DNA from: Blasia pusilla
Taxonomy: Eukaryota
Length of the DNA stretch: 64,000 bases
NCBI GenBank assembly: GCA_050084515.1
Contig: CM114271.1
Coordinates: forward strand, 17,236,001 to 17,300,000
Reading direction: 5' to 3'
Every line of letters starts with the position of its first letter. Within the stretch, counting starts at the first letter, position 1. Positions 1 to 64,000 of this stretch are shown piece after piece. Below the pieces are notes generated by a model. It did no database searches and was not told the DNA's origin. It worked only from the letters and a program-made list of their open reading frames with translations. A program made the position numbers and the translations under genes.

Positions 1-2194
1 GATTGGATAGCCATCTTCCTCTCTCTGTAGTGTTGGCTAAAAGCCTTAGGATAGCCTTTGGTGCACTTTTTGGTTTCTTTATCCATACATTGTGCATTTG
101 GATTTAATGGTCCACATGGCCCATGAACCATGCAATTAGCAATGAGAATACAACCTTGGATGGGTAGATTGATCAGGATCTCTGCTGAAATAATACGATC
201 ATAATCATGAGTGGCGTGGTTTATCCTCCCGCCCCTAATATAATAAGAACGTGCATATCGGCAAACCTTTTTTGGAATTCCACCACATGGATACATCCTG
301 CAACTCGTCCTAATATTTGCTTCTTGATGATAAGCCTTAATAACTCTTTCTTTTTCTTCTCAAAAACCCGTACAACCAAATCTGGTCGGTCTGCAACCGA
401 TTGACCAGGAATAAGGTTGATGTAATCTCCTCCCACTTTGGATTGCATGTCATAGTCAAAAAGTAGTCCGGCTTCCCCAAATGTCTTACAATTGCCATTG
501 CATCTTGATACACTTGATGCATGTGACGCGGTCCTCCAATAAAAGAAGAAGGTAATATAATGCGCCTCCCAACCTTGCGACTATCCACATCATGTCGATG
601 TATAGCATCCTTTACACCTTGATATAATTCAACCCTTAACTCCTTTTGATTCAAGCGAACCCATGATAATCGTTGCATCTCTACAGTTGCATAGAGGTCA
701 ACCATATATTCTTGAGTAAGTCGACCAAACCGCAATAACCGATTGTCATCTTCGCCTTCAATCCGCGTTTGAAGTCGAAAACATGCAAATTGCAAGGCCG
801 TAACACTCTTTGTTTTTCTTTCCACAAAAATATCACCATCAAGTCTTTCCTCATCCATCCAATCTTCTAAAGGATCCACGTGTCCCTCCTCATGAATAAT
901 CCGGCCCAATCGTTCGGATTCTCTATGACCTTCAATCCTCCCGAAGGGTATTCCACGATGCCAACCTGCTTCACCATAGGTAAATAGGAGAACAAAATGT
1001 AGTGGAATATATGCTTCATTGAGGTCTGATATACGCTTCACTCCTCCTCCATGTAGTCGTACAATTATATCACGATGGTCAACATGTTCACTACCATCAC
1101 CCGGCAATATAGCCGCAACCTCAGAAGCAATTGGTAAATTATAACGCTTAGCATCGAGACCTCTCTTACTTGCCTTGAGGATGATCTGCATATTAACGTC
1201 AATTGCTTCATATGCCATATGACGAAAGATCTTCACATATGGGTTGCATGCATGTAACATGTCTTGTAGCCCTCTCAAAATATCTGAATTAAGATCAGAA
1301 GATCTAGACATAACTCTTTCACGATTCTCCAATTCATTTGCGGTATCATGGATGTAGAGTTGAGCAAATTGGGGATGACCCCCCATATCAGGATGTAAGG
1401 ATCCAATAGAATGATAAATTCCGCCTTGGATCCTAAAGTGTCCGGTGCCACCTATTTGTTCATTTATATGCACTCCAGTAGAGGCAAGTTGAAGCGCAGA
1501 ATTGTAAGCTCTAGCATGTGTAAGAAAATGAAGACTTCTAGGACCAACACCTGAAATCAAGGATTTCAGGAATGGAGGAGACGATTTCAAGAGGGGTAAA
1601 TGTATTCTCCCATGGCCACAACACATGCCATATGGTGAGTCACTAATCTTTAAGCCTTTCACCCTTTCACATTTCCAATGTAAAGCATGACATGATGGGC
1701 ATATCTCTGTCATATAACCCAACGTATGACGACCGTTGACACGATTCAAACTCCTCTGTAATCTCAACTTCCTAATATCATTTTCTTGGAAATTTGGTCT
1801 TCTTGCAAGATTCAATAATGTATTTAATCTTACAATCCTATCAACAACAGACAACGGAGGAACCCTAGAAGCATTTTGTATAGTGGCACTTTCTGGAGAT
1901 AACACGACTCCATTAATGGTAGAAGACGAAGGATCTACTCTTGAGCTTGCTTCATCCTCGGAACGGGGAAGAGTTGAAGAATTCTCACCAACTTCATGTT
2001 GAAACAGAATCGGAAGAGTGATAGGTAACTTAACTTCTCGTATCACATAAGTAGTTGGCCTTGTCGTAGATATATTATCGACAACTTCATGGAGTGCACT
2101 ATCACGTAACTCCCGTCTTGGGGATGCAAGATATGTAGATGGAAGATGAAATTCTTGATTTTCTGCTACCATTCCTCCATCCTCATTAAAAGGC
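1..2194 (-). mobile_element. Helitron Rep (rolling-circle initiator) coding region, N-terminal/Rep part of RepHel; runs off the left window edge
   Basis: ORF 337..2172 has the Helitron Zn-finger (CPSCHALHW...CCGHG) and helitron_like_N blocks (AYNSALQLAS, FRIQGGIYHSIGSL, PQFAQLYIHD, LLFTYGEAGWH, GRLTQEYMVDLY, ILPSSFIGGPRHMHQVYQDAMAIVRHLGKPDYFLTMTCNPKW). It continues through frameshifts into DRPDLVVRVF, VEFQKR..MHVLI (HUH region) and MVHGPCG..NP...CTKGYPK. Confidence 0.93.
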
Positions 2195-3090
2195 CTGAGA
2201 AAACATCAATATATTACATAATACATACAAATTAAAAATGAACAATCAAAGATTTTCAGCGAGATGTAAAAATTTAGATATGTACCTCATGGATTGACTA
2301 CCAATGGCCATAAGCTCTTCATTTGGAGTAGTTAGAATACTTTGAACTACCATCGGAGTCTCAACTTGACCATGAAGCGCTTTCCTTCTTTTTCTATACT
2401 CTCGATAATAACACCTCTTTTTTCTTTCAAGGCTTCCATTTTATCAAAGACGAATAGCACGCGTTTTGGGCCTCGCCGCGTAGAACCTTCCAAAAATCAC
2501 GTACATCCACAGGATTCAATGGAATGGGAAGTCTGAAACAATACAGAAATGTTAAGAGTAATGCACTAACTTAAATGAAAAGTGAAGATTATGAAGGATA
2601 GAAATGTGGACATGTGAGGTGATTGTGAATTTTGCAAACTTACGTAGGAGATGTTTCGAGAAGGAATTCATCTTCAACAGGTGCTTTTTGAGCTAATATT
2701 TCCTTGCAACGTGCACGCCTTTTTTGTTGTGCGTTCACACGCATCAATTTTCGAAAGTCACGCAAATGTGTCGGATTTGATGGAATAGGAAGTCTATGCA
2801 AAAATTCCAAGATTGTATCATTTTAGTATATACATACAAAACATGGGATGTAAGGCGTATCGTGGAAATGGAAATAGGTTGCTTCCATTGTTCTCCCAAA
2901 GAAAGGTGCTTACATCGGAGAGGTGTTCTTCAATTCTTCGATTTGTCTCCCTGAATTTTGTTGTAGAATCGGTATATTTGTGATAACACCTAGCGGCCGT
3001 CTCTCCACGTTCAATAATAATCCACCTCCACTCGCCATCTACATTACACACCACAGAACTACTTAATAAAAATTGAAAAAGAAATTCCTG
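2195..3090 (-). other. Putative upstream exons/introns of the Helitron gene
   Basis: Minus-strand GT-AG introns at 2195-2285, 2533-2643 (GTAAGT donor) and 2794-2913 (GTAAGC donor). The 3' part of exon 2286-2532 (ILTTPNEELMAIGSQSMR) splices in frame to the main ORF, but that exon is not open throughout. Confidence 0.55.
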
Positions 3091-10049: not shown

Positions 10050-12850
10050 GTATATTTTCTTCATTGAAGAATGTTAGCAAATTTTCAAGTTTGGCTTATA
10101 TTTAGAGCGACCAAGTATTTTTAGATTGGTTATTCATCTCCAAAATGAACAAATTCTACATTCTCATGCTAATGATCCATTCGAGACCATTTTACAAAGA
10201 CGCAAGGATACAATTCTAATGGTATGGTTTGCAACCAACCATTTAGATTCATCAACAAAAAAATATCTATATGTTGATTATCCTTCACATTACATATGGA
10301 AAAATAAAATGTGTCACAGGCATAACCAAGCATAACATGGTTGTGATCATCCTATGGGGCGCTTATATCTGACTTGTTTAGGTATGCATTTTCTACAATA
10401 GTGCATATCTTAAGCAAACCATTCTTTACTTTCCATTGCAAAGTTCATGCATAGATTTTGCATATGCGCTTTGTTTCCTTAAATAACGTTTCATAAATTG
10501 TAGGAAATGGTGAATGTCATTAGTTGTGATTGCTTCTTCATCACATTCGAGGTGCAACTACATATGCAGATTTGAGGATTCTGCATGGAGAAATCTATCT
10601 AACCTTCAAAAAGGCTGCTATTCAATTAGAACTTTGACAGGATGATAGGGAGGTAATACTTGGCTTGCAAGAAACTTGGAGGTTAATCGCTTTGTCAACT
10701 CTTTGCTATAATTTTGGCTTATAACACACCATCTACATATCCAAATTCATCTTACCAAAGATTTGAGGAAAAATGTACATATAATTTTTCCTCCTATAAT
10801 CAACTTTACGTCTCCATGTAATTTGCATTATTTTAAATGTCTTTTATGGTAAATCCAAGCCTTTTTGTGCACAGATAACAAGACTTTAAGATATTCCTTG
10901 GAATGCAGAGATCATCAATTCTACTTTGTTCCATGTTCTAAACCATTTGGAAGACCAAGGGAAGGGATTGTCAAACTTTCTAAACATGCCCCAATCCATT
11001 TTCCACGAACAAACCTTCCCAATTTCGCATCTTGAGAAAGAAAGAGATCTTATATAATATAAAAGAGTTATATGAAGAAGCTATCCATGGAGAGACATTA
11101 TTGAATTTAGGGAAACAAGTTTTTTGAGATGGGGTGCATGAACAACTTTAGAACTTGAGTGAAGATAACCCACTTTTGATAAGGACATGAAAGCTTACAT
11201 CATTCATTACTTCTCTCATATTCTTCATGTAGAGTATCATTATTTTTTTCTTACATAAAACCTTCATCGTGTCTTTGTAAGAAAAAATATTTTTTTATTG
11301 ATAGTCTTGAACGCTTGGTGGGACTGAAAAAATATTTCTATACAATCTCCTACTCAAAAGTATTTGGGGTCAAGGAGATATTGTATAGGTTATTGCCTCA
11401 TGATCCAAGATAGTGGCTTTATTTTTGGAAGGAGTTTATAGAATTTATTCTTGCTTCAAGATTTTGATCAACATTGATGAAAATTCCACCTGCAAGTATG
11501 AACCAATATCTATTATTGCCTATACTTCTATCCAATAGATTACTTTCTTTACTTCATTCCATCCATGACAAGATATCAATTGACTCATTACCTCTTGCAG
11601 GATCCTTGTTATTAGTAATCAGGTATGTGCCATCCAAATCTCTAAGCTCATCATATGGGACGAGGCAATTATGACTGATCATCAATCATAAATTGCAAGA
11701 TATCATAAGATATGCGTATCCTCATTTAAGAGAGTTACCACTCAGTGAAAGCATATTGGTTTTTGTGGAGATTTCCATCAAGTCCTTTTCCTTGTTTGTC
11801 ATGCATATCATCTGCAAATTGTGCAAGCCACATTTAAGAGATCCCTTTTATGATCTTATATGAGGGTGATGAAACTTACCACGAATTTGAGAGTCCAAAA
11901 TTTGGAAGGTATCATTCTTTCTTTCTTTCTTCTTTTTAGTTTTTGGTAATTGAAAACGTACCAATTTGAGAAATTTTTCTATATATGTAAAGTTCTTTGG
12001 TTCCACATATACAGATCCTACACATGCCTATCAAGAAGAGTTTGCAAATTGGTTGTTGCAAGTTGGAGAAGGTCGTCTTCCTTTACATAAGGAATTAGGG
12101 GATGATATGATCTTTAAGAAAAATATCAAGGATCTCATATATAAATCTCATGAATATATTCTATGAAATAATAATTGATTGTCAACCATTCCATGACATT
12201 ACTTTCTTGAGGGATATCACTATTTTAACACTTAGAAATTGAGATATGGATCATATCAATACCAAAGTTATGTCCCAATTTAAGGTAACTTTTTTATTGC
12301 ATATTTTTGCACCCATTTTTGTTACTCTATGAAAATGATATGTACCTTTAATATAATTTTATATCTTATATAGAAGAGCATATTTATCTTAATGCAGATT
12401 CTGTTTTAGATGAGGGGATGTCTCATGTTTATCCCACGGAGTTTTGGAATATTAGTTTACCTTTTGGATAACCGCCACATTCTTTCCTAAAGATAGGGGC
12501 ACCAATGATGTTATTACGAAACATAAATGGAGCAAAAGAACAAGCTTATGGGACACGATTGATCATGGATACCAATATTATTACAAGTAGAAATATTGGA
12601 GATCGGATTTTCATCCCACACATTCTTTTGATTGCATATGACTTTAGCTTACTTTTAAATCCTCATAGATTTCATATTTTTATTTATCCTTTTTTTTTTA
12701 TGACTATTGATAAATCTCAAAATCAAAATTTACAACAAATTAGAATCTACTTACCAAGATTTATATTCTTTTATGGACAATTATATGTTATTTTATCAAA
12801 AGAGCATGTACTAGAAATACGATTCTTATAATTACTTGTATTACAAGAAT
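10050..12850 (+). pseudogene. Decayed Helitron RepHel remnant (end of Rep plus PIF1-type helicase)
   Basis: Ordered degenerate motifs across stops, frameshifts and introns: RLVIHLQNEQ, LMVWFATN...YVDYPSHYIW, LLLHHIRGATTYADLR, FFID..GGTEKIFLYN (Walker A region), KLIIWDEAIM (Walker B), GDFHQVL, FANWLLQVGEG, LKIGAPMMLLRNI..YGTRL, MTIDKSQNQNL...YGQLYVILS. Confidence 0.88.
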
Positions 12851-46785: not shown

Positions 46786-49700
46786 TCACTTCCTGTGCAA
46801 TTCTAACTTGGACTTAGTTGCCAATGCACTCCGGAAGCATTGAGTGAGCTTTGTCTGAGTATGACTCTTCAGGGGAAGTGTAAAATCATCGGAGACATCC
46901 AACTCCTGCACATGAGAGCGTCATTCCAATTGCACTTATGAGCAGAATGCCAGTGCACAGGAAGTATGAAAAAGCAAATTACCTGCAATCACAGTCAGGA
47001 ATGTGTTTAGGATGCTGGTAATTCAGCACAGAACGGCACCTGTAAGAGATGATGAGCAGAGCGAAGTAAATCCATATCTGCATCAGATGCACAGCCTCGG
47101 GCATCTTGTGTGGTCAACCACATGAAAGCCGCTTGGAGAACACTACGAAGTCCATACCTGAGCACGACTTGACTCCTGTGCCATGCCACAATTATTCTCA
47201 GAAGAATTCCAAAACCATAGAGTCGAAACATTCAAGGATCAACATTCCCAAAGAAGTACACCCGTAAATCTTCCAGTGTGCAGTGGGTGAGGCATCTGAG
47301 GGAAACTCGCCCTATGGAAAAGTGGAGTACCTGAAACAAATAACTCCTTTGTTGTAAAGAGAAGGTGTAGAAGACCAGTTCACGGATCTGTGTTCAACAG
47401 GGCAGAAACAGCCAATGACTTAATGCTCATACTCGCAGTCTGATCCTTTCAATCATCTTTCCCGATCTAGAACTGTGCAATTACCATACGAATAGCAATT
47501 CTGCAAGCACACACAAAAATCATGTCTGAACAATCTGGAATCACAACACACGCCAGGAAATATTCCAGTGGTACCTGGCTCTCTCAACCATAACTTCATG
47601 GTTCAAGTCAGGGCAGTGAGTGGAAATCAAGTGTAACCACCCTTTGTACCGCTTCCATGATTTGTGCAGCAACTCCCACAATTCTTTTCCAATCACAGCC
47701 TCATTGGGGCTGACCTGTTTGACAGATCCCGACTTCCAATGTACCTCAAAGTCAGAACTACTCACTGCTAATGAGTATGTACTCTGGGGGTCTTCACACC
47801 AAGGTGTCAGAGAGCTAATGGCAATCGTGCCATCTTTGTTATCATCCAGAACTCCGTGAGCTTTGTTATCTTCAGTCAGGCAACCTGCTTCTTTCACCTT
47901 TCTCAGCATCATATTTGCTATGCAGTCTGCCCGTCCCATGAAAGCAACTCCAAAGGCCTCGTATAACAGGATCCAATCATGGCCTGTCAACTTTCTGATG
48001 AGAGAGTACATAACAGTTGAAGGGTGACGCGAATTTTGTAACCCGTTGTCATACCACTCATTCAAGGCACGACGAAGATAGTCATAGCCTTTCCTGAATA
48101 CGTGAAACCGATGCCGTACGTTTGCTGACATGGACAGGTTTTTCTTGAATACCCACCTGCTTACCCACCCAAATTAACCTGACAAGTTAGAGCTTACGGC
48201 CGAGTCGCGGCAGGGAGAAAAATAAGGACTTCAGTACTCTACTTATATCCCAGTGTCCCACCGACCATAGAAGAGCAACCGTGGATAGAGCCAAATGCAG
48301 GATTGGTACAAAACGTCAGAAACACGAACAACAAATGTGAGGAATCATTGAATCAACAATTCCCAGCTCAACCTTCACTAGGAAAGGAGAGCTTTCCATC
48401 ACCATCATTATAAATCCTGTGCGTTCGAATACAATAAAATCAACCGATCACAAAATCCAAAGCCAAAATAAAGGCGAATTACCCCCGTTATGGCATTTTG
48501 CACCTTCCGTTGAAATTACGTGCGAGCGAATATAGTCCACTTACCCAATAGCGAAATCCAAATATAAACGAAGGCCACTCAACCTGGGAAGTGCACTCCG
48601 TGTTGTTCCTCAAAAAACTCGCGTGCGTGCGAATACAATCTAGTTACAGAGTTGCAAATCCAAACCCAAAGAAAGACGAATCCACCTTGGCAGTACATTC
48701 GGAGAAGAGTCGCTCCCTAGCAGTCCACTGTCAGAAACGCCCTCCAGAAAATGCTCCCACAGATTATCTTGTACTCCTACAGCATACCACCGCTTACATG
48801 TCTGGAGAGAAGAACAAAGATCCTTGAGATCGAGCCTCTTCATAACGTGAAAAATTATCTCGTCCGGCATCTCACCGACTGGACTCGTATCCCCGAGGTC
48901 CTCTTCCGCACCCTTCCCCCGAAAACTCTCTTCACTGCCAGGAAATTCACCACTTGCCCGCGTCCGCTTAGCAGGTTGCGTGCAAAGTTCATGGTGTCTG
49001 GTGATTGAAGGATTCTTCTGCTTCACACCCTTACTCATATCTACTCCCCATCCCGGAAATGAGAATGTAAGCCCGGGAGGACCGAGGGACAGATGAGGCT
49101 CACGAACCCGCCGGGGTCCTTCGTTTCCCCTCCTCTCGGGTACAACATGGGGACTCTCCACCGTGGAGGTCGAACCTGTGGAATACTGCCTCTCCAATGA
49201 TGTCGCCACGGACGCATTGGATCGGCTGACACTCCCGAGTCTCCGGTTGCCAGAAACACTCTCATGAGCCGATTTCTCCCCAAAGCCAGAGCCCCTGCTG
49301 TAATGCGAAGAGGACAGACCTAAACATGTAGTTTCCTCATTCTGGAAATGAAACTGCCTCTCCGGTGACTGCGTTCTCCCCTCTTCGCTCAAGTTTCTAG
49401 TTCGCAGTCCTATTTCCACATCGCAGTGCGCCTGGGCTGTCACGATCTTTCCTCTCAGTTCGCCCAAACCTCTACCAACACGTTGGACTTGCTGACTTGA
49501 GAGCACAGTCGAGTGCCTGCTTTTCACTCCAGTGTCTCGTCCAGAGCTCACATCCTCACGGGGCCTTTCAAAAGCGGCGTCAAAATCGAGCGCTTGAGCG
49601 CGACCCCCAGCCTCCAGCCAACCTCGCCGCGGCACACTTCTCCTCTCCAACTCCTCACTGCAATCATCCTCGCCATGGCAGAGCGCCAATTGCAGTCGGC

Positions 49701-49950
49701 AATCCACGAATGGCACTTCACCAACCGCACCAGAAGGCGGCGAAGACCTCCTCCCAAAATTGAACCTCGACTCCACTCCTTTCGACCTTTCGCCCTCCGC
49801 ACTACGAGCCCCGGTGCTCGCTCGCTCGTGCTGCGCCAGGAGCGCGGCCTGGAACTGCCGCTCCAGATTGGCATCCAATTCATCATCATCCCCCCCGACA
49901 TTTTCCGCATGAATACTCCTCAGGTCCTCCTCCACCTCTTCCTCCTCCAT
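46786..49950 (-). CDS. F-box protein (~719 aa) with long low-complexity N-terminus and C-terminal cullin-repeat-like helical domain; exons 49950-48686, 48156-47575, 47387-47331, 47175-47040, 46905-46786
   Basis: F-box motif MPDEIIFHVMKRLDLKDLCSSLQTCKRWYAVGVQDNLW. Four GT-AG introns with consistent phases (2,2,2,0) give an open 2160-nt CDS ending in TGA at 46788-46786. The start could instead be the ATG at 50046. Confidence 0.82.
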
Positions 49951-50269
49951 CGTCACGCCCCTCTCCTCCACCCCTCCCGTTCTCACCAGCCACAGCGCGA
50001 GCGGTTTTCTTCTTCCTCGCGCAAACGCACCAATCTCTCCATCCACGTCCCGCGATCCCCACCTCTCCCTGCGCTTGCGTCTGATTTCCCACGCGCGACC
50101 TTCACCACCTCCACACCCGATCTGTTCTCAACCACCACTTCCTCTGCGCCACCCTCACCTCCTGCCTCTCTCTCTCGCAAACGCATCGCCCGTCGCCCAC
50201 CTTTCCCACACCATCGCTGCCAAATAGTGCACTCTCGTCTCTCCCGTCCTCTCCCTTCTCCGGACTCCA

Positions 50270-54650: not shown

Positions 54651-54899
54651 ATGAGATGAACTTATGGAGACAAGCAAAAAGATCGTCTTTTAGATTGGAA
54701 GTGTTGAATCTTGACGATCTAGATGAATAAGTGAGAATGTGCTCTCAATTGGGAGAGACTTTTTGATGAGATATGCCCATGCCATTTGAGAACTTGGCTC
54801 TTACACAACATTGAGATACATTGAGATTGTGACTATTCAAAAAAGAGGATATCGATCGACGATCTGGAGGTTCAATCCTCGATTCAATTAGGGAAATTA

Positions 54900-55500
54900 T
54901 ATGGCTATTTGTAACAGACCACTTAACAACTGTAACATTGGTTGTTACTACATGGCCGACCCATAATTTTGAGGATGCGTACGTTGTTGCCATCTGACTT
55001 TCTCTTGCTAGAGGGATGTGATAACATGATTTGGGAGGATTAAGTATATCACACCATCTTCCGTGCATTTTCAATGAATCTCATTTTGCAATTTGAGATT
55101 CATTGTAGTTATATCTTCAAGGCTATGGTGTATGTTTTGTGGATCCATCGTAGATACGACCACCATGCTAATCAATGATGGGTATTTGAGAGGATGACAC
55201 ATGACATGTTTGACCCCACCTCGCATTCAGGGTCTCCAAAGACAATGTATGCATCCTAGATGTATCTAGGATAGGAAGCATTGGATTTGGATTTATTTGA
55301 GTGACATGGATAACGAAAAGAAAATTAAAAATGGGGCTACAAGAGCATCTAAACTCTTTACACCTAGTTTCACAAAGACATATGTCAATGTACGTAAGAA
55401 TAGATGGATATCTAGAGTTAGAAAGACCTAACCACCAATCAATGGTGCAATTTGAGACCTTTTGATGTATGGTCATGTACGTATGCTTAATTTTTAGGTT
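54900..55500 (+). mobile_element. Decayed 3' end of a gypsy element: integrase C-terminal region, PHD finger and 3' non-coding region
   Basis: ILRMRTLLPSDFLLLEGCD, then CMFCGS...MLINDGYLRG*HMTCLTPP...MHPRC (55129-55263). 55295-55470 is homologous to 57315-57485. Confidence 0.7.
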
Positions 55501-56559
55501 CTTGAGCTTTTTGGACTGTGAAAATGATGTAATGTGTACTTGCAAGACAATTCAAGCACTAAATGTCACATAACAGAGCGAGCATGACACCAACTCGTGC
55601 AAATAAGACAATATCTCAAACCCTCCATCCATCCACTTTTTTAAATAAGTAAAAATCTAAATATTTGAAGGCCACACATATAAATACTAACATTTCATTT
55701 CCCCCAAAGGGCAGATTTAAGTACCATGTTATATCAATCTCTATCATCAACAATCATTGTCTAGATTAATCATCTTTGGCCAAGAATCCCATCTTAATAA
55801 AAAAAATCTATTCATTAAGTTCTAATTTTAGTGAGGAGTAACTCTTTACACAAGACAAGATTTCAAGATTGTATCTTTTCAAAATTCACTCCTAGCATAC
55901 TGGTATACGTAATGGAGGAAAAAAAGGGTACTAAGAAAAAAATTCAACGTGGCTCACTTTCAACCGTCAGGAAAACAAAACATGCGCTATGGCTCATTTT
56001 CAACCGTCTAGGAAAACAAAACATGCCCTATGCGTGCTTGCCTACAGAATACGGTTGCAGAAACTCATTAGGGATAGAAGAATTACTTGTGATTGTCCAA
56101 CAAGTCAAAGCTTTCACCCATAGGATCCCTGGCCTACTCCGCTACACACATAGCAACGCAAAAGGAGATGAGAAGGCTCTTTCTTTGATAATTGAGAAAT
56201 CCAGTGGAATGCAAAAACTAGCCAAAAATATATGAGGCGAGAAGAATTTCTTTATCCCTCTATTTGTCACACAAGGCAGCAAGAGAAGGTATGATTACGA
56301 GCATCTTACGAGCGAGGAGTGAAGTTTATTTTTTACTCTGTGTTAGTGGTGCAAATGTCGCCTTTGTTGGAAATCTCTTTCCTCATTGGGAGCGTCCATT
56401 GAAGCAAGCTTGGAATAGTAGAAACCACAGCAAAAACCTTTTGGGATGGAGAAGGGGTGATGCAGGCGGGAATAAAGACGATTGTGCAGGCATGCTTCAT
56501 GGAAGTTCTACAATTAGCAAACGACAGAGAGAGGGACTAATGGCGTGCGTGCCTGGAGT

Positions 56560-57597
56560 GGGAGCAAGAAGTCGTTCCTGGCACTACTTGCTTCTGATGT
56601 TATGATGTTGGGAGGTACGCCCGCCGAGGTTTTTCGGCTCACCGCTACGCTATATGAGTGCGGAGTTGGTGTTCTTGCATCACACTCAGGGGTGATTGCA
56701 GAGGAGGTGATGGACCTGCCCTTGGATCCTATGCTTGGGCCGTCCACGTTACATTCATGGTAGGCTGCGGCTGCTAGGATGGCGGAGATGCAGTCTAGAC
56801 CCTTGATAGAGCGTGCCATGGCTGCTCTTGATGTTGTGTTGGTGGATAACCATGGAGAGGTCTTCCACTTGGTGAGTCCAAGACGTAGAGTTTTTAGTCT
56901 GTAGCGCATCTTGTTGGATTCAGAAGCACAATCCCTGATATGGGGGAAAGCGGATTTCAGAGATTTGGAGCGTTTTCCATTTCAGATACAAACATCCTTG
57001 GGTGGAGCGAGTACTGCACAGTATATCACCCGATAGGAGGTCGTTGTATGGTTTGGAAGGACCATGTGCGAACTGTGCGCCATGTCACCTTCTAAACATT
57101 AACGGTATAGTTGATCCAAGCTTAGCAGAAGTTCCTGCAAGCTTACGATGTATGTTGTGTGGTTCCGCTTGTGGTGCATCCACTATGCTAGTCTATGATG
57201 GGTGTTCAAGAGGATGGCATATGGCATGTTTGACACCACCTCTCACTAGGGTTTCTCAAGGACGATTGATGTATCCCAGATGTACAGAGAGTAGGTATTT
57301 CTAGATTCTGACTTGTGTCTGTGACATGGATGACAAGAAGGGGACTAACGATGGGGCCATATGAGCACCCAGATTTTTTTCTCTTAGCGTTCTAAAGATC
57401 TATGTCATAGCATATAAGGATAGATGACTATCTGGAGTTAGAGGGACCTCACCACCAGCTAGGGGGACGATTGGAGATATTTTGGTACTTCTCGCCTCTA
57501 TGTTTGGATGCTATGAGTTAGCATGGGATCGTGCTTGTTTGTGTGTGTGTTCGATGACAACCATGTATGTTGTGTAGCGATGTGTATGCGCACGACA
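56560..57597 (+). mobile_element. Internally deleted gypsy derivative: pre-protease/protease fragment joined to integrase C-terminus plus PHD finger
   Basis: 56590-57010 is collinear with 60790-61390 (SW*AAAARM, LVDNHGEVFHLVSP, ILLDSEAQSLIWGKA, FQIQTSLGGA). It is followed by NCAPCHL and PHD CMLCG..MLVYDGCSRGWHMACLTPPLTRVSQGRLMYPRC (57149-57283), and ends with an LTR-end-like ...GCACGACA. Confidence 0.8.
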
Positions 57598-57599
57598 AC

Positions 57600-58513
57600 T
57601 ATCACGTCTTTTAGGATAGATCGGTGAGATCTAGTAGAGCGCCTTTGTGAGTAGTGGAGGACAGGCTCATGAGGTCGAGGATGACCTATTGAGGCCCCGA
57701 AAAATCTGAGAGAGCAGGTTTCCCATTTGTTTCGGCTCATTTGGAGCCATATTGATGAACTTACTATTTTGGGTAAGTACCATTTTGAGTATATGGTCGA
57801 GTTTCTATTTTTTGAAGTGGCCCCCTGGCCTAGGGAAAAGACCAAATAAAAGGATTAGAAGATGTAATCTCCGTAAATGTGATCCAATTGTCCTTGACCT
57901 CCTACATTAGATCAAGAGCCAAGGATGTGACTTGGGAACATAGGTTACCAGGGAGAGAGCTTGGGAGAGGGGAGGGGTATACCTCAAGGAAAGAGAGTTT
58001 GAGAGCTCATTCTCTCTTTGTTGAACCTCTTGGCATGAGGCGGCGCAGTTATGGTCCCTTGCCTTGTGTCATGACCATACAGATTATGTCGTAGAGTATA
58101 GTGTGCTAGTAGAGGCCGTAACTTATGTAGGGCCATAATTTCTAGGTAGAGATGCGGTTTCATACATGGAGTTGGGGGTTATTCCGTTGAGGGTGACTTT
58201 TCCAGTAGGGCCTGCTCTTAGGTTGGAGGCCATAGTGTGGAGTGCACTCAAAGAACAGTTAGTTCTTTGAGTTGAGCCTGTTGCGTTGGGAGTTAGCCTT
58301 GGTAGTGAGTAGAGCTCTTGGCTATGGTGGTTCCCGTAAGCTTCGACCTGGATTCTCCCATCGTGGAGTGGGTTTGGCTCGATTGTATATGATTCTATAC
58401 GTGTTTTATGACAGTAGGTCTTTCATGGATTTCACTCAAAGAACTGGAGTAGATCGATGGTAGCTTCGATCGTGGATCAGTAGAATCTGGTTAGGGCTGA
58501 TTGTGTGATGACA
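57600..58513 (+). mobile_element. Probable 5' LTR of the MTase-bearing gypsy element
   Basis: Starts TATCACGTC (cf. TGTCACATC of the solo LTR at 59178), ends ...GATGACA just before the gag-like region, and is non-coding. Boundaries cannot be verified because the 3' LTR is outside the window. Confidence 0.45.
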
Positions 58514-58554: not shown

Positions 58555-60555
58555 TACATGACATCGACGTCACTTGGTTACTTAGTGGTGGTGCCGCATC
58601 GACGTTGGTCATCACGGAGTTGTCTGGTGGTGTGGTTTGGGACCGTGGTGCGGACAGTGGTGGTTTTACACGAAGTGGATTGAGGTATCGGCTACCTTTT
58701 CCACTTATGACGGTTGATGAAGAAGAGGACGAGGGTGTTCCAAACACCAAGTCTTCTACAATGTTATCGAGTGTTGCAGCTCCATTGAATTGGGACATGG
58801 ACGGGATATATGGGGCCATGAAGGGCCCATGACGATACTCGGGTGCAGTGGGCACCATTGAGTTGGAGGACTTCATTCAGAAGTTTGATACGTGATGTGA
58901 TATGTAGTTGTTGCGGAACGCCACATTATTTACACCCTTCTTGGCTTGGAAGGTGTTGTTTCAGCACTTGGAGGGACCACCCATGGACGATTACCATGAG
59001 TTTAGGAAGGACCATGTTGCTGAGATTGAGGCGTGGAGACAATATTGGTCTCCAGGTTATGTGTCTATTACTCATGGTGGTATTGGTAGTAGTGCTCCTA
59101 CTATGCCAGCCAGCCCGACGTTGAGTGGTACGAGTACGAGCCGGAGTGGGGATACTAGTGGAGGTACCAGTGGGGATTGTCACATCTGAGTAGCCGATAG
59201 GCCGAGATCTATCATGGATAGGGCATAGGAGCCAGCAGACTATCTTGAGTGTAACTTTGTCCCACAATGTCGGATGAGGTTGAGAATAGGACCATTGTGT
59301 AAGGAACGTCGTTTTTGACAACTTTCATGTTGAGGTCTTTTACAGCCGGGTGACTTGTTGAACAGGTCACCTGCCCCTGGTAACCTGTACGCGTAGGTTA
59401 CCAAGGGGTAGGGCTATTTTTAGGGGAAGAGCCTTTTGGCTCTTCTCAACCCTATATAAGAGAGGAAGATGGCTTTCCTAAGCCATCTTTCTCATGTTGG
59501 GCCGTTGGAGCACCTCCCTTGTATGTGTGTGAGATAGGACTAGGGTGCTAGCGTCCGGATTCCTTGATAGGTGGACGAGGCTTGATATGCCGATGTAGAT
59601 TGAGGAGTGGAGTTTTAGGCCGGGTGTGCCGTTTTTACTACTCTTTATTTTTGTTGTGTGATCTCCATGTATATGTATGAGTTGATTTTTGTACATGTGT
59701 GGATCGACTCGTGTGTGGGGAAGATCGGTGTTGTGTGGTGTAGATGTAACCAACGATGTATGTTGTGTAGCGATATGTATGCGTACGACAGGGTTCTAGT
59801 GGAGGGGTACTAGTGCCCCACCATCATTCAGCCCGGTTGCAGAGTTCTTCAAGAGGTTGAAGAAGAACTATCAGGGAGTGAAGACAGAGAAGTTGAGGAG
59901 TCTTCAGGAATTTGAGCGAAAGACTGGTGAGAGTCTTCGTGAGGCATACATTCGTATGCAACGCTTGATTTCAATTACCCAGGGTGTGACTGAGGCTCGG
60001 ACAGTCCAGTTTTGGTATGGGATCTTGGATAGAGAGTTGCGTTGTAGGGTACGTGATGCTACTCTTATGAGTGATGATTCACCCACATTGACCCATGTGT
60101 TTGCTCTATCTGAGAAGATTGAGCTTAACATGATGGAGGAGAGAGTGGTGACATCCGCATTCAGTAGGGATACAACTACTACTTCTCGTGTTCAACAGTC
60201 CACCTCACAGTCTCGTAGTAGTGGTGGTGGTAGTAGTAGTGGGAGTCGTGGGGGATACACCCGACCTCAGTTAGGTCCTAGAGGGACACTTGCGCAGAGA
60301 CCACTGCCTTCATTTGCTGCCCCACAGCAAGGACAGTCATGTTGGACATGTGGAGGTGATTATGTTAGGAGGTTTTGTCCCCAAGAGGATGGGAGATGGA
60401 CTTTGGAGGATGGGCCTCAGTCGGCCCCAACTCAGTGTGATCATTGCGGGAGACCGGGTCATCCTCGAGAGCGTTGCTTTGATCTTCATCCAGAGTTGAG
60501 ATCCGGTGACTACCCCTACCACTACGACAGAGTCATCTATGGCTGCCAGGATTGA
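58555..60555 (+). pseudogene. gag (interrupted by a solo LTR, with in-frame stops)
   Basis: YSGAVGTIELEDFIQKFDT*CDM*LLRN...LFQHLEGPPMDDY before the insertion; FFKRLKKNYQG...GESLREAYIRMQRLI and Zn knuckles CWTCGGDYVRRFC / CDHCGRPGHPRERC after it. Confidence 0.8.
59178..59790 (+). mobile_element. Solo LTR (613 bp) inserted in gag
   Basis: TGTCACATC...GTACGACA termini; flanks GGGAT / GGGTT (4/5); TATA-like CCTATATAAG at ~59451. Gag-like coding sequence lies on both sides. Confidence 0.8.
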
Positions 60556-61250
60556 GCAATTGGAGCAGAGGTTGGCTACTATGGTTGGTATCCAGCATAG
60601 AGCAGGTTCGGGAGCAAGGGCTTCCACCTCTTATGGAGGGGATGATCTCTCTTATATGGCGAGTGCAGCACAGGTTAAAGCATCAGCTGTAGTTACGAGA
60701 GGAGTCATTCGAGCGTCAGAGCCACGTGGTGCTACTGTGGAGTTGGACCCACAGAGGTCCTGGAGGCAGGCTAGGCTTCCCCATTCATTCTTGTTGTCTG
60801 AGGTGCTTAGGACTCCATCCATGGTTCCTACGCAGCCTATTGAGCCTACAGCGGGGACTGCGGCATCTACATCGCGTGTAGTAGATACGGATGCAGCATC
60901 CAGTGCATTATTGCGGATGGCAACTTCAGTGTTGGGATCCCCATTATTTTGAGCCACGGAGCTGATGGCTTTAGGAGTTGACTTAGCTCCTGTATTTCAA
61001 CTAGCAGCCACGTTGTGTGAACGTGGGAGTGTTACTGGTACACGTGGTGAGGTGGATGAGGGTGTTGCGGTGGAGTGACCCCCCTATGTCAGGTGTAGCA
61101 TTGAGTACCAGTGCTACTTGGCAAGCAGCAGCGGCGAAGATGGATGCATTACGAGCCCGGCCAGCCATTGATTGTGAGAGGCTTACACATGGTGTATGTA
61201 TGTTGGACAACCACATTGGGATATTCTGATTGGTGAGTCCTACATGACAG

Positions 61251-61600
61251 GTGTATAGACCAGATAGAGTCTTGTTAGACTCTAGTGCCCAACCTTTGAT
61301 GTTGGGAAAGGCGGAATGTATTGGTTTGGGTATTCGAAGGTCAGAGCTTGAGCCTTGCCCATTCCACATTCAAACATCACTTGGAGGAGCCAATGATAGG
61401 TCTCAATTCATGACACGGGAGAAGTTGTCTGTACAATTGAGACTAGATCATGCGACTGATAGCTCCCGGTTGGGAGTACCTGCAGTGGTCATATCAGCCG
61501 GGTCGTATGATGTACTAGTTGGAGGAGCAGTATTGTACCCGATGGGTTTTCAGATGGACTAGTGGACTGAGACAGCGTCTTATAGACCTGGTTGGCAGTT
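61251..61600 (+). pseudogene. Retrotransposon aspartic protease
   Basis: VLLDSSAQPLMLG (D at 61278; cf. DSG) ... YDVLVGGAVLYPMGF. Confidence 0.8.
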
Positions 61601-62002
61601 CGGGGATGGACATATGAGCCAAGTTCTTGTGAGATTTATTTATGGGGCTCGACTAGGAGGGTCTTCTCCAACAGTATTAGCATCTGTGGCTAGTTTTAGT
61701 GGAGTAGTCACTTGGCCAAGAGACTTTTTGGAGGGTAATCTTTATGCTGTGGATTCTCCTGTGCATGAGGAGGTAGAGGAGGTCCCTAGTTTTGCAGCAG
61801 TGGCATCCTCATCGTTGGATGTGCCACTTTGGAGTTCAGGCGGTGCACTTCGATAGGAGGATGATCGCCTAGTTAGGAGGCTTGGTGTGAGGCTGTTATA
61901 CCTCACGAGGAAGAGGAGGCCCCACGACGGACCCCTACTTCTGGTCCAGTTGGGTTATCCCCTTTGGATACTACACCCATTGTATGGCAGTATTCGCCGG
62001 AG

Positions 62003-62960
62003 GGCATTTGTGTGTTAGATCTCTTTGGTGGGATTAGCACTGGTTTGGCTGCAGTGTTGTAGGCCGGTATTCTTATGCGGAGATACGTGTATGTGGAGCG
62101 AGATGAGACGGCCCACAGAGTCTCATCCCGACATATTGGTCAGTTGATGCGGAGATATCCTGAGTTGTTGCCGCCATTAGCTATTCGTGGGTACCAGCGT
62201 GCTTTGCCGTCACACATTGCATTGTTGGGGGCGCAGGACCTTGAGAGGGTTGGTCTTGTGGATTTGGTGATTTCTGGATGGCCATGTCAGGGTCATACAC
62301 GTGCAGGTCGTGGTGAGGGATTACACGACCCTAGGTCTCGATTTGTTTTGGGAGATGTTACGGGTGTTACGACATCTTCAGGTTCATCACACACGTGCTC
62401 TAGCTTACATTCTGGAGAATGTTCCATTGTTGGATGACACTCGGACCCGGATGATGGCGAGTGTTCATAAGGTGTAGTGTTGGATTGGACCAGCAATGTT
62501 TTTGGATGCAGCGCGAGTTGGCTCGCGTGCACATCATCCACGTTTGTGGTGGACAAACTTGTTGCCTAGGGAGGTTGTACGTCGAGCATATAATGCAGTG
62601 CAGTGGGATCCTTGCCTTACAGTGGATAGTATCTTGGATATTGGGCGACTTTCTCAGGTGGTGAGGGTTATTGATCGATCACCCATGGCAATGGTGAACC
62701 GTGTGGGCCAGCCTAGGATGACACTACCCACATTTGTGAGTTTTCCCTTGTCACATGCCTACAGGGAAGGTGGTCCCGAGCTTGTATGGGATTCTCATGT
62801 GCGACAGTTGGTGGAGCCTAACGCTGATGAGAGAGAGCGTGCGATGGGATTTGCTACTGGTGTGACAACGGTTGCTTCCATTTCTGAGGCTTCACGACGT
62901 CATGTGTTGGGTCAGGCCATGGACCTGAATTGTTTGACCTGGATTTTGAGTCTTGGTATG
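62003..62960 (+). pseudogene. C5 cytosine DNA methyltransferase domain (DNMT3-like motif order) within pol
   Basis: Motif I VLDLFGGISTG (62012-62044), II YVYVERD, IV DLVISGWPCQG (PCQ 62282-62290), VI YILENV (62415-62423), VIII AHHPRLWWTNL, IX ERERAMGF, X RRHVLGQAMD. Stops at 62060 and 62475 and one frameshift near 62345. Confidence 0.9.
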
Positions 62961-63340
62961 GCCGAGTTGCGTCGACTTCGGACTATGTCTATGGGTCTTC
63001 CACCCCTTGTGATGAGCTCGATGACTACCGGGATGGTAGAGACATCGGCTGAGGGCGAAGAGAATAGTATTTTGCATCCTTGGAGTAAATGGGATGTAAT
63101 GGATGGGCATGTGGAGTTGGTTGCTCATGCTGGTGGAGGAGTTATTTGCTCAGATGATGGTGTAGCTAAGGGTGTACCATCTTGTGAGAAGGTTGCATAG
63201 CAGCCAATGGCGTCGTCCTCTCCCTCTAGTGTGCCAGTGGAGGAGACTTGGGAGCCATTACTTGGGCCCAAGCTTACGGGAGGTGAGAAACGACGCTTGA
63301 CACAGTTCCTACGTGCTTATAGGAGTTTTTTTCCTTTAGC

Positions 63341-64000
63341 ATGAAGGAGTTGGATGCTTTGGTTGGACCCCATATACGGATTGATTTGGCTAGTGATACG
63401 CCAATCTTTCGTCGTCCCTACCGATATAGTGATATGGAGAGGGATCTGATTCAGAGTAGGACATTGGACCTTTTAGAGGCTGGATTAGTGGAGTTGTCGC
63501 ATGGAGAGTATGCATCAGCCACTGTCATGCCTGCTAAAAAGGATGTGCAAGAAACTACACGGATAGCCGGATGTGTGGAGATTACCGTCCTATCAATCGG
63601 CAGACCAAGGCCGATAGGTATGCCATGCTCATACCTGAGGATATCTTTGATGTGGTGGGACAGGCAAAGATTTTCAGTACTTTGGATCTTCGAGCAGGAT
63701 ACCATCAATTGCTGATTCGAGAGAGTGACAAGGCCAAGACAACATTTTGGGGTGTCAACTCTCATGGCAAAGATTGTTTGTACCAGTGGAAATTTGTACC
63801 CTTTGGGTTGAAGAATGCACATGCCGAGTTTTAGAGAGTGATGGACAGGATCCTAGCAGGGTTGGATTTTGTTCGGTATTACATTGATGATATCTTGGTG
63901 TTCAATAACACGGTGGAGGAGCATCAGATACATTTGCAGATTGTGTTTGAGCGGTTGAAAGCTCATGGTCTACGTTTGCATCCAGGAAAGTGTAAGTTCT
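63341..64000 (+). pseudogene. Ty3/gypsy reverse transcriptase (frameshift and stop; truncated by window edge)
   Basis: PIFRRPYRYS, YASATVMPAKKD, RMCGDYRPIN, FSTLDLRAGYHQ, VPFGLKNA, YIDDILVF (63880-63891 for YIDD), GLRLHPGKCKF. Confidence 0.95.

What the first reader, a model, noticed from the sequence alone, without database searches (positions are those of the whole stretch)
54900..57304. PHD finger at the pol C-terminus of related elements: a possible reader-plus-writer retrotransposon family
Seen: two independent degenerate PHD fingers of identical span (135 nt; 55129-55263 and 57149-57283). Each follows integrase C-terminal-like sequence and precedes a homologous 3' non-coding tract. The second lies in a fragment whose protease region aligns with the MTase-bearing element. 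Established: C4HC3 PHD fingers read histone H3 tails, DNMT3 is targeted by a PHD-like ADD domain, and chromoviruses carry a chromodomain at this position. Inference: the family encodes both a histone reader and a cytosine methyltransferase, loosely recapitulating a DNMT3-type system inside one TE.
Basis: partly seen in the sequence, partly recalled or inferred. Interest (0 to 1): 0.8.

Follow-up and report, generated by a model that had tools for sequence, protein, structure and literature searches.

The report
Retrotransposon carrying methyltransferase and PHD finger
Two decayed PHD-finger remnants are the tail ends of dead copies of a green-plant jumping-gene family whose intact relatives carry both a DNMT3-like DNA methyltransferase and a histone-reading PHD finger on their integrase.

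Summary
Both 135-nt PHD relics sit exactly where stated. Copy 2 reaches Pfam PHD (E 3.5e-5) and matches a Marchantia PHD tail (62% over 72 aa, E 3e-21). The two copies are homologous (71% over 325 nt), not independent inventions. Copy 1 follows a decayed integrase C-terminus. Copy 2 is an internally deleted element in which protease is joined to the PHD tail.

The family-level inference is supported from outside the window. Among proteins retrieved by the methyltransferase alone, all 35 that extend far enough past integrase carry the PHD. Among 80 metagenome loci retrieved by integrase-core motifs, 38 of 40 informative loci have the methyltransferase, 63 of 66 have the PHD, and 29 of 32 have both. 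One apparently intact element reads gag-protease-DNMT, TAG, RT-RNaseH-integrase-PHD.

The methyltransferase matches only DNMT3A/B/C among solved structures. This is the Gypsy-DNMT3 kind reported from Klebsormidium in 2018, and it shares that family's odd split-repeat ends. The main text of that paper does not mention a PHD.

The PHD is fused to integrase and is separated from the methyltransferase by a stop codon. It is therefore more likely an integration-targeting reader, like a chromovirus chromodomain, than a guide for the methyltransferase. The window copies are dead. Whether the window's own methyltransferase element ends in a PHD lies beyond base 64000.

The parts
54698..55128 (+). Copy 1: decayed integrase C-terminal region (stops and frame breaks); 5'-truncated fragment
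   Evidence: tblastn of P0192 residues 427-469 to 54698-54826 at 65%, continuing to 55221. P0198 904-942 aligns to 54710-54826. No RT or integrase core lies upstream.
55129..55263 (+). Copy 1: PHD-finger relic. 5 of 8 zinc ligands kept; TGA at the conserved Trp.
   Evidence: P0056 1575-1605 aligns to 55129-55221 at 48%
55264..55437 (+). Copy 1: 3' non-coding tract homologous to that of copy 2
   Evidence: blastn 71.4% over 55115-55437 against 57135-57457; alignment A1
56584..57048 (+). Copy 2: protease-like remnant, joined by an internal deletion to the PHD tail
   Evidence: Marchantia gag-PR-DNMT proteins align here at 33-48%. 56764-57033 aligns to the window's own 61125-61418 at 41-51%.
57053..57148 (+). 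Copy 2: conserved pre-PHD linker holding the family's Cys-Ala-Pro-Cys-His motif
   Evidence: alignment A3; 28 of 43 long methyltransferase homologues align from 56993/57053 onward
57149..57283 (+). Copy 2: PHD-finger relic. 6 of 8 ligands kept, reading frame open. Stop codon at 57302-57304, six codons after the last Cys, as in the bryophyte-type tails.
   Evidence: Pfam PF00628 E 3.5e-5; P0192 62.5% over 72 aa, E 3e-21; best matches listed
57326..57604 (+). Copy 2: 3' tract equivalent to the 'B' terminal repeat of related elements. Ends with a conserved 40-nt motif at 57558-57597.
   Evidence: blastn to the post-PHD B region of 19 related loci at 67-73%; split-repeat layout in L010 and L074
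58189..58445 (+). 'A'-type terminal repeat upstream of the methyltransferase element's leader
   Evidence: blastn to both A1 and A2 repeats of L010 and L027 at 72-77%
58797..59177 (+). Methyltransferase element: start of gag (ATG at 58797), with three in-frame stops
   Evidence: Marchantia P0153 residues 1-99 align to 58797-59093 at 76%
59178..59790 (+). 613-nt insertion in gag, absent from Marchantia homologues. Starts TG, ends CA, flanked by GGGAT / GGGTT. Its last 40 nt match the B-repeat end. Candidate solo terminal repeat of a related element.
59809..61075 (+). Methyltransferase element: gag with two CCHC-like knuckles, and linker
   Evidence: P0153 129-572 at 61-68%; weak Pfam Retrotrans_gag
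61104..61880 (+). Methyltransferase element: aspartic protease region
   Evidence: P0153 580-838 at 68%; P0070, P0207 and P0296 protease parts align here
61877..63200 (+). Methyltransferase element: DNMT3-like cytosine-5 methyltransferase, broken by frame shifts and an in-frame stop. ORF1 ends at TAG 63198-63200.
   Evidence: Weak Pfam DNA_methylase around the Pro-Cys-Gln motif. 788 homologues. Homologue P0153 hits only DNMT3A/B/C in the PDB. Stop context read.
63246..64000 (+). Methyltransferase element: start of ORF2 and reverse transcriptase, cut by the window end
   Evidence: Pfam RVT_1 E 3.5e-7 and 1e-10; P0174 532-680 at 83%

Best explanation
The two PHD relics are the decayed 3' ends of two old copies of a Ty3/Gypsy-type retrotransposon lineage of green plants.

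Layout of intact members: gag-protease-DNMT3-like methyltransferase, a TAG stop, then reverse transcriptase-RNase H-integrase-PHD. The PHD sits within a few residues of the pol C-terminus. The element ends are split direct repeats (A1 ... B1-A2-B2).

The three window pieces:
- Copy 1 is a 5'-truncated tail.
- Copy 2 is an internally deleted element, with protease joined to the PHD tail.
- The neighbouring element (58797 to the window end) is the 5' two-thirds of a third, also dead, member.

How it most likely works (inferred). The PHD is fused to integrase at the position where chromoviruses carry a chromodomain. There it would tether the integration complex to nucleosomes by reading the histone H3 tail. 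By sequence class the likely ligand is H3 with unmethylated K4. The methyltransferase is made from the upstream reading frame. It would methylate element DNA de novo, as proposed for the published Gypsy-DNMT3 and Symbiodinium elements.
For: Shown in the window:
- PHD identity and homology of both relics.
- An integrase C-terminal remnant precedes copy 1.
- A protease remnant related to the methyltransferase element precedes copy 2.
- Gene order gag-PR-DNMT-RT in the neighbouring element.

Shown in relatives:
- Pfam positions give CCHC/PR-DNMT-RT-RH-IN-PHD in P0207, P0301, P0302, P0304 and P0309.
- Marchantia model P0192 combines this methyltransferase type (57-64% to window 61485-62858) with the terminal PHD.
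- In the two methyltransferase-retrieved sets (197 proteins), 35 carry DNMT+IN+PHD. The 16 with DNMT+IN but no PHD all end 204 residues or less after integrase. The PHD starts 193-206 residues after integrase (5th to 95th percentile of 244 proteins) and needs about 50 more.
- Of 80 loci fetched with integrase-core patterns, 38 of 40 with enough upstream DNA have the methyltransferase, 63 of 66 with enough downstream DNA have the PHD, and 29 of 32 informative for both have both.
- L006 has two open frames of 1369 and 1047 aa in the same frame, separated by TAG. Pfam finds Asp_protease and DNA_methylase in the first and RT, RNase H, integrase and PHD in the second.
- 214 of 253 tails keep a full C4HC3 pattern.
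- P0198, a complete 1083-aa RT-RH-IN-PHD ORF, comes from a transcriptome assembly.

Domain classes:
- The methyltransferase (P0153) hits 25 of 25 DNMT3A/B/C chains in the PDB.
- The PHD profile's best PDB matches are CHD4, KMT2C/D, PHF12, KDM5 PHD1, WSTF, ATXR5, DPF3, PHF21A, KAT6A, BAZ2A/B, UHRF1 and AIRE.
- The tail model matches foamy-virus and Ty3 integrases up to the PHD.
Against: - None of the three window pieces shows the methyltransferase and the PHD on one copy. Copy 2's protease is only 33-48% identical to the Marchantia proteins, against 55-68% for the neighbouring element. It therefore belongs to a different, older subfamily whose internal content is unknown.
- Some relatives lack one part. 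Three proteins with more than 600 residues upstream of RT have no methyltransferase. P0305 extends 257 residues past integrase without a PHD. L013 and L034 lack the methyltransferase, and L064, L066 and L067 lack the PHD.
- The 80 loci come from about ten metagenome data sets. They may be many copies from a few host genomes, so the counts are not independent events.
- The histone specificity rests on my recalled knowledge of what the matched PDB proteins bind. No binding was tested.
- The co-occurrence may be inheritance within one clade rather than functional coupling.
Confidence: 0.8

Rival explanations
1. The PHD relics come from a methyltransferase-less sister lineage (RT-RH-IN-PHD only). 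They merely lie next to a methyltransferase element, so in this genome reader and writer are not carried by the same elements.
For: - Copies 1 and 2 have lost the region where the methyltransferase would be.
- Copy 2's protease is much more diverged than the neighbour's.
- 32 of the 117 RT-IN-PHD proteins used for the tree start too close to RT to show what lies upstream, and 3 truly lack the methyltransferase.
Against: - Copy 2's tail is closest to bryophyte tails (P0314, P0316, P0332, P0192; 60-67%). These fall with the clade whose DNA loci carry the methyltransferase upstream in 38 of 40 cases.
- Copy 2's protease still aligns to gag-PR-DNMT proteins, E down to 7e-18.
- The three methyltransferase-less proteins sit in the other (RT-RH-DNMT-IN-PHD) clade.
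Confidence: 0.15
2. Reader and writer act as one unit. The PHD guides the element's methyltransferase to chromatin lacking H3K4 methylation, as the ADD domain guides DNMT3, so the element builds its own silencing or stealth mark.
For: - Near-obligate co-occurrence.
- In the second architecture the methyltransferase lies directly before integrase-PHD (RT-RH-DNMT-IN-PHD: 67 of the 117 tree rows; domain positions). There the two could stay on one mature protein.
- The PHD's nearest solved relatives include readers that I recall bind unmethylated H3K4.
Against: - In the window's architecture the two are separated by a conserved TAG stop and about 1300 residues of RT, RNase H and integrase. A protease is encoded, so separate mature proteins are expected.
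- No ADD or PWWP family was reported by any Pfam scan.
- No experiment bears on it.
Confidence: 0.2
3. The PHD-like stretches are chance cysteine-rich frames or captured host exon fragments unrelated to any transposon.
For: Both are degenerate. The Pfam score of copy 2 is only just above threshold (24.2 against 24).
Against: - E 3e-21 to a Marchantia PHD tail.
- 250 of the 431 session proteins hit the copy 2 tail at E 1e-3 or better.
- The conserved pre-PHD linker, the integrase remnant and the terminal-repeat tract flank the relics in the family's order.
Confidence: 0.01

Closest known systems
KnitGypsy-Dnmt3 / streptophyte 'Gypsy-DNMT3' (de Mendoza et al. 2018, PMC5890265; section 9 and Fig. 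4 legend read)
   Same: - A DNMT3-type methyltransferase inside the coding region of a Gypsy-type element.
- The same position between protease and RT in Klebsormidium protein P0307.
- The same unusual DIRS-like split-repeat ends, noted in the Fig. 4 legend and seen here in L010 and L074.
- The integrase of P0307 is 79% identical over 361 aa to Klebsormidium P0346, which goes on into a PHD.
   Different: - 'PHD' occurs nowhere in the paper's main text or in the one supplementary file held. Its figures and other supplements could not be seen.
- Here the family is traced to liverworts and mosses (Marchantia, Calypogeia, Sphagnum) and to chlorophytes (Haematococcus, Tetrabaena, Chromochloris).
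- A second architecture with the methyltransferase between RNase H and integrase is seen here.
Chromoviruses (Ty3/Gypsy with an integrase C-terminal chromodomain)
   Same: A histone-reader domain is appended to the integrase C-terminus. The presumed role is tethering integration to a chromatin state (role of chromodomains as cited in the passages read).
   Different: No chromodomain was reported in any Pfam scan of family members.
PHD fingers in Chlamydomonas transposons (Gypsy-7a_cRei, PMC9940879 figure legend; 'common accessory domain', PMC8557442 passage)
   Same: A PHD finger inside the pol of a Gypsy element of a green alga.
   Different: That legend lists PHD before integrase and lists no methyltransferase. 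Relatedness to the present family was not tested.
'EpiLTRs' (bioRxiv 10.64898/2026.05.21.726589; passages read)
   Same: Single LTR elements that combine a chromatin reader with DNA methyltransferases.
   Different: Those combine a chromodomain with an adenine methyltransferase and a DNMT4-related enzyme, in Cymbomonas and Euglena. Here the combination is a PHD with a DNMT3-like enzyme.
Host DNMT3 with its ADD domain
   Same: A DNMT3-type catalytic domain together with a PHD-type zinc finger encoded by one genetic unit.
   Different: The finger is a plain PHD, about 1300 residues downstream, beyond a stop codon, and fused to integrase. No ADD or PWWP was detected.

Membership tests
PHD finger (Pfam PF00628) | Score at or above the curated Pfam threshold | tested here: met
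   Copy 2: 24.2 bits against 24, E 3.5e-5, partial match 1-35 of 47. Copy 1 could not be scanned because of its internal stop. Intact relatives score 26-50 bits.
PHD finger (Pfam PF00628) | Complete Cys4-His-Cys3 zinc-ligand set | tested here: not met
   The window relics keep 6 of 8 (copy 2) and 5 of 8 plus a stop (copy 1), so they are non-functional remnants. 214 of 253 related tails keep the full pattern.
Ty3/Gypsy LTR retrotransposon | Domain order protease-RT-RNase H-integrase | tested here: met
   Seen in relatives and related loci. The window shows gag-PR-(DNMT)-RT only, up to its end.
Ty3/Gypsy LTR retrotransposon | Two identical long terminal repeats | tested here: not met
   Related loci show split direct repeats A1 ... 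B1-A2-B2 instead (L010, L074). The window shows a B-type tract after the PHD and an A-type repeat before the gag leader.
Gypsy-DNMT3 (KnitGypsy-Dnmt3) | DNMT3-type methyltransferase within the element's coding region | tested here: met
   Window 61877-63200 is homologous to P0153, whose only PDB matches are DNMT3A/B/C, 25 of 25. Klebsormidium P0307 aligns to the window's methyltransferase at 40-48%.
Gypsy-DNMT3 (KnitGypsy-Dnmt3) | DIRS-like repeat layout with Gypsy-like domains | tested here: met
   Fig. 4 legend of PMC5890265. Split repeats in L010 and L074, with homologous A and B tracts in the window. A complete element could not be examined in the window.
Chromovirus | Chromodomain at the integrase C-terminus | tested here: not met
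   No chromodomain family among the Pfam hits of 56 family proteins scanned. A PHD occupies that position.
DNMT3-type reader-writer protein (ADD + methyltransferase on one chain) | ADD or PWWP reader on the same polypeptide as the catalytic domain | tested here: not met
   ORF1 of L006 shows only Asp_protease and DNA_methylase. The PHD lies in ORF2, after a TAG. The same stop is at window 63198-63200.
PHD readers of unmethylated H3K4 | Binding to the H3 tail with unmodified K4 | not testable with these tools
   Only sequence-class resemblance to CHD4, KDM5 PHD1, PHF21A, AIRE, BAZ2 and DPF3. The binding specificities of those proteins are recalled, not taken from a call.

The most novel reading that the evidence does not exclude
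Across green plants there may be one ancient retrotransposon clade in which a PHD histone reader on integrase and a DNMT3-type writer are kept together almost without exception. The writer has been placed at two different positions in two sub-lineages. This would suggest selection for a self-contained epigenetic module: the element chooses H3K4-unmethylated chromatin for insertion and methylates itself there. In effect that is a mobile counterpart of the host DNMT3 reader-writer logic. It could also have seeded or exchanged parts with host enzymes.
Probability: 0.25. Interest if true: 0.8.

Novelty: new variant of a known kind. Interest (0 to 1): 0.6.

Why it matters
Retrotransposons that carry DNA methyltransferases are a recent and still sparsely studied discovery. 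How they benefit from the enzyme is open.

If the same elements also carry a conserved histone reader on their integrase, there is a testable model: read a chromatin state, insert there, and write DNA methylation. It would also extend the family from one charophyte alga to liverworts, mosses and chlorophytes, including the genetically tractable Marchantia.

Two further points help experiment design. The methyltransferase sits at two different places in two sub-lineages, and a conserved TAG separates writer from reader. Together these suggest which proteins are made and in what amounts.

The copies in this window are themselves dead relics of no functional consequence.

Tried and rejected
- The window's whole genome is not held, so full-length copies in the same genome and the sequence beyond 64000 could not be examined.
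- Earlier scan notes were not open.
- Pfam over 207 window ORFs of 70 aa or more found no integrase domain anywhere in the window. The integrase remnant before copy 1 is visible only by comparison with family proteins.
- A simple two-LTR model for copy 2 and the neighbouring element failed. Only 40 nt are shared between 57558-57597 and 59751-59790. Related loci explained this as the end of the B repeat.
- I considered that copy 2 and the neighbouring element form a head-to-tail dimer sharing a repeat. I think this unlikely, because their protease regions differ greatly in divergence. The stretch 57605-58188 between the B-type and A-type tracts remains unassigned.
- The strict readthrough motif TAG-CAR-YYA (recalled from plant viruses) is present at the ORF1/ORF2 junction in the window and in L006, but in only 1 of 40 related loci. 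16 of 40 have TAG CAA CC(C/T) at the same place. Readthrough is therefore a suggestion only.
- Fold search of the integrase-PHD model returned integrases and gave no separate information on the PHD. The pre-PHD linker was modelled at low confidence.
- No repeats were found in L006, so its termini are unknown.
- The tree is a quick FastTree with long-branch warnings. I use it only for the two-clade split.
- Literature: seven full-text searches found no paper describing a PHD together with DNMT3 in a Gypsy element.
Full report
**What is in the window**

The window is eukaryotic, and no whole genome is held for it. At the stated coordinates there are two stretches of 135 nt. Each begins with the codons for Cys-Met-(Leu/Phe)-Cys and ends with Arg-Cys.

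The second stretch lies in an open 121-codon frame (56939-57304). Pfam calls this frame a PHD finger at E 3.5e-5 and 24.2 bits, against a threshold of 24. The first stretch has an internal stop and could not be scanned.

The two are homologous at the DNA level: 55115-55437 against 57135-57457, 71.4% over 325 nt, E 7e-39. They are also homologous at the protein level, 45% over 58 residues. Their equal length is therefore inherited. They are not independent inventions.

Against an alignment of 18 intact family tails, copy 2 has lost the third and seventh zinc-binding Cys (both now Tyr). Copy 1 has lost three ligands and carries a stop at the conserved Trp.

**What surrounds the relics**

Pfam over 207 window ORFs of at least 70 residues found no integrase. 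It found a Helitron (224-2205, minus strand), a Pif1-like fragment (12472-12828) and an F-box gene (48643-50127, minus strand).

Downstream lies a decayed element with gag, an aspartic-protease-like region, a cytosine-5 methyltransferase with recognisable motifs, and the start of reverse transcriptase. It is cut by the window end.

Copy 2 is preceded by sequence that aligns to this element's protease region, at 41-51% amino-acid identity. Within about 20 nt of where that alignment ends, the pre-PHD linker begins in another frame. Copy 2 is thus an internally deleted element. Everything between protease and the last 30-50 residues before the PHD is gone.

**Relatives found through the methyltransferase**

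A search of 1.84 billion representative proteins with the 240-residue methyltransferase ORF (62478-63200) gave 788 hits at E 1e-3 or better.
- Of the 22 hits of 1500 residues or more, 16 carry a Pfam PHD about 200 residues after the integrase core.
- Of the 43 hits of 900 residues or more, 28 align to copy 2's PHD and the 25-50 residues before it, at 33-50% identity and E down to 7e-15.
- Two gene orders appear. Most have RT-RNase H-DNMT-integrase-PHD. A minority, like the window element, have protease-DNMT-RT-RNase H-integrase.

**Named relatives**

The closest named proteins to the window's methyltransferase come from Marchantia polymorpha (59-77% identity), Calypogeia fissa and Sphagnum. 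The window therefore probably comes from a bryophyte, most likely a liverwort. This is an inference from similarity only.

The Marchantia proteins align from an ATG at 58797 through gag, protease and methyltransferase to the stop at 63198-63200. So the element starts about 1 kb earlier than the first visible gag frame.

One Marchantia model, P0192 (Mp_7g09570, 612 aa), joins several parts in a single protein:
- the end of protease and parts of this methyltransferase (57-64% to window 61485-62858);
- the integrase C-terminus;
- a PHD at its extreme C-terminus (Pfam E 4e-9).

Its tail is 62.5% identical to copy 2 over 72 residues (E 3e-21). Its integrase C-terminal part matches 54698-54826 just upstream of copy 1, at 65% over 43 residues. 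This confirms that copy 1 follows integrase-derived sequence.

**Relatives found through the tail**

Searching with the tail of P0192 gave 122 longer and 163 similar-length proteins. Nearly all list integrase and PHD families. They come from Marchantia, Calypogeia, Sphagnum, Klebsormidium nitens, Haematococcus, Tetrabaena, Chromochloris and many unnamed metagenome contigs.

Pfam positions show full polyproteins in the window's gene order with a terminal PHD: P0207, P0301, P0302, P0304 and P0309.

**Domain census**

I ran a blastp domain census of all 431 session proteins.
- In the two sets retrieved by methyltransferase alone, 35 proteins have DNMT, integrase and PHD.
- 16 have DNMT and integrase but no PHD. 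All 16 end 204 residues or less after integrase. The PHD begins 193-206 residues after integrase and needs about 50 more, so none of the 16 is long enough to be informative.
- In the whole census, only P0305 extends far enough (257 residues) and still lacks a PHD.

**A test at the DNA level**

I fetched 80 metagenome loci using patterns from the integrase core. This does not select for either accessory domain. Mapping domains by tblastn gave these counts:
- 38 of the 40 loci with at least 3.6 kb upstream of integrase have the methyltransferase between protease and RT. The misses are L013 and L034.
- 63 of the 66 loci with at least 780 nt downstream have the PHD. The misses are L064, L066 and L067.
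- 29 of the 32 loci informative for both have both.

These loci come from about ten data sets and may be many copies from a few genomes.

One locus, L006, looks intact. A 1369-residue frame (Pfam: Asp_protease, DNA_methylase) is followed by TAG and then, in the same frame, a 1047-residue frame (RT, RNase H, integrase, PHD at 990-1034).

The window has the same stop at the homologous place: TAG at 63198-63200, followed by CAG CCA ATG. 16 of 40 related loci have TAG CAA CC(C/T) there. The strict plant-virus readthrough motif, which I recall as UAG-CAR-YYA, fits the window and L006 but only 1 of 40 loci. Readthrough is therefore only a suggestion.

**Ends of the element**

Related loci have split direct repeats. 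In L074 the layout is A1 (784-1072) ... B1 (10226-10406), A2 (10406-10694), B2 (10695-10875). L010 is alike. This is the DIRS-like repeat layout that the Fig. 4 legend of de Mendoza et al. 2018 notes for KnitGypsy-Dnmt3.

In the window:
- The tract after copy 2's PHD (57326-57604) aligns to the B region of 19 loci.
- 58189-58445 aligns to the A repeats.
- 58607-58800 aligns to the leader before gag.

The 40-nt match between 57558-57597 and 59751-59790 is the conserved end of B. Its second occurrence closes a 613-nt insertion in the neighbouring element's gag (59178-59790). That insertion begins TG, ends CA and is flanked by GGGAT / GGGTT. It is possibly a solo repeat of a related element. The stretch 57605-58188 is unassigned.

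**What the domains are**

The methyltransferase of Marchantia P0153 matches only DNMT3A, DNMT3B and DNMT3C among solved structures (25 of 25, best E 1.7e-8). This agrees with the published 'Gypsy-DNMT3' label.

A profile of the PHD tails matches 113 PDB sequences. The best are CHD4, KMT2D and KMT2C, PHF12, KDM5 (Lid, 5A, 5B), WSTF, ATXR5, DPF3, PHF21A, KAT6A/B, BAZ2A/B, ORC1b, UHRF1 and AIRE.

From memory, many of these read the unmodified H3 N-terminus (H3K4me0 or H3R2). The family also has Gly rather than the cage Trp two residues before the His. Both points are recalled knowledge, not tool results.

A model of an integrase-PHD tail (mean pLDDT 61; PHD part about 80-87) matches foamy-virus and Ty3 integrases over the core and C-terminal domain.

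**Family structure**

A quick FastTree of the integrase-to-PHD region of 117 proteins separates two clades:
- A 37-row clade (local support 94) holds 12 of the 15 proteins with the methyltransferase before RT. It also holds 25 ORF2-like proteins that start just before RT.
- A 74-row clade (support 89) holds 64 of the 67 proteins with the methyltransferase between RNase H and integrase. It also holds the three proteins that truly lack the methyltransferase.

Long-branch warnings apply, and I use only the two-clade split. Under midpoint rooting, which the tool applies for drawing only, the PHD would be the shared feature and the methyltransferase would occupy two different sites. No outgroup or root test was run.

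In the first clade the PHD ends a median of 3 residues before the C-terminus. In the second a further median 324 residues of unknown nature follow.

Copy 2's tail ends six codons after its last Cys. Its best matches are first-clade bryophyte tails at 60-67%.

**Relation to the published family**

Klebsormidium P0307 (protease-DNMT-RT-integrase, 'partial') ends 167 residues after integrase. Its integrase is 79% identical over 361 residues to Klebsormidium P0346, which continues into a PHD. The published family therefore very probably has the PHD too.

The word PHD does not occur in the main text of that paper, nor in the one supplementary file held. I could not see its figures.

What else is in print, from the passages I read:
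- PHD fingers in retrotransposons in general (bioRxiv 10.1101/2021.11.30.470311).
- PHD fingers in Chlamydomonas Gypsy elements (PMC9940879 legend and PMC8557442 passage).
- LTR elements that combine a chromodomain with methyltransferases (bioRxiv 10.64898/2026.05.21.726589).

Seven full-text searches found no description of a PHD combined with DNMT3 in one Gypsy element.

**Verdict**

It is not directly visible in the three dead window copies.

The 'DNMT3-like system' reading is an analogy. The PHD belongs to integrase and is more plausibly an integration-targeting reader. The methyltransferase is made from the upstream frame.

I rate this a new variant of a known kind, of moderate to good interest at the family level. 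The window copies themselves are relics.

Noticed in passing
window 63198-63200; L006 5083-5085; 16 related loci (for example L010 6940): A TAG stop at a conserved position separates gag-protease-methyltransferase from RT-RNase H-integrase-PHD, in the same reading frame. It is followed by CAG CCA (window), CAG TTA (L006) or CAA CCC (16 of 40 loci). This suggests stop-codon readthrough, or a separately started ORF2. The methyltransferase would then be made with gag, and the PHD only in the rarer longer product.
   Followed up: partly
L010 1676-1975, 10238-10805; L074 784-1072, 10226-10875; window 57326-57604 and 58189-58445: The family's ends are split direct repeats (A1 ... B1-A2-B2) rather than two plain LTRs. 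This is the DIRS-like layout mentioned for KnitGypsy-Dnmt3. The window carries homologous B and A tracts.
   Followed up: partly
window 59178-59790: A 613-nt insertion in the gag of the methyltransferase element, absent from Marchantia homologues. It starts TG, ends CA and is flanked by GGGAT / GGGTT. Its last 40 nt are 92.5% identical to the end of copy 2's terminal tract. Possibly a solo terminal repeat of a related element.
   Followed up: partly
proteins P0044-P0145 and others: A second, larger lineage has the methyltransferase between RNase H and integrase. It also has a further stretch (median 324 residues) after the PHD with no Pfam match. It comes mostly from unnamed metagenome contigs and from chlorophytes such as Haematococcus.
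   Followed up: partly
window 57065-57100 and alignment A3 columns 8-12: A Cys-Ala-Pro-Cys-His motif about 20 residues before the PHD is conserved across most of the family: it is complete in 12 of the 20 rows of A3, and its second Cys is invariant. It might be an extra metal site or an extension of the finger. The structure model was of low confidence there (pLDDT about 37-46).
   Followed up: no
window 224-2205 (-), 12472-12828 (+): Helitron helicase-like N-terminal domain (Pfam E 9e-36 and 3e-11) and a Pif1 2B-domain fragment. These are remains of Helitron-type transposons.
   Followed up: no
window 48643-50127 (-): A 495-codon open frame with an F-box domain (Pfam E 1.5e-11), possibly a host gene. 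It lies in a GC-richer stretch about 5 kb from the retrotransposon relics.
   Followed up: no
window 57605-58188: About 580 nt between copy 2's B-type tract and the A-type repeat of the next element, with no match to related loci. It is unclear whether this is a diverged A repeat of copy 2 or unrelated inserted DNA.
   Followed up: no
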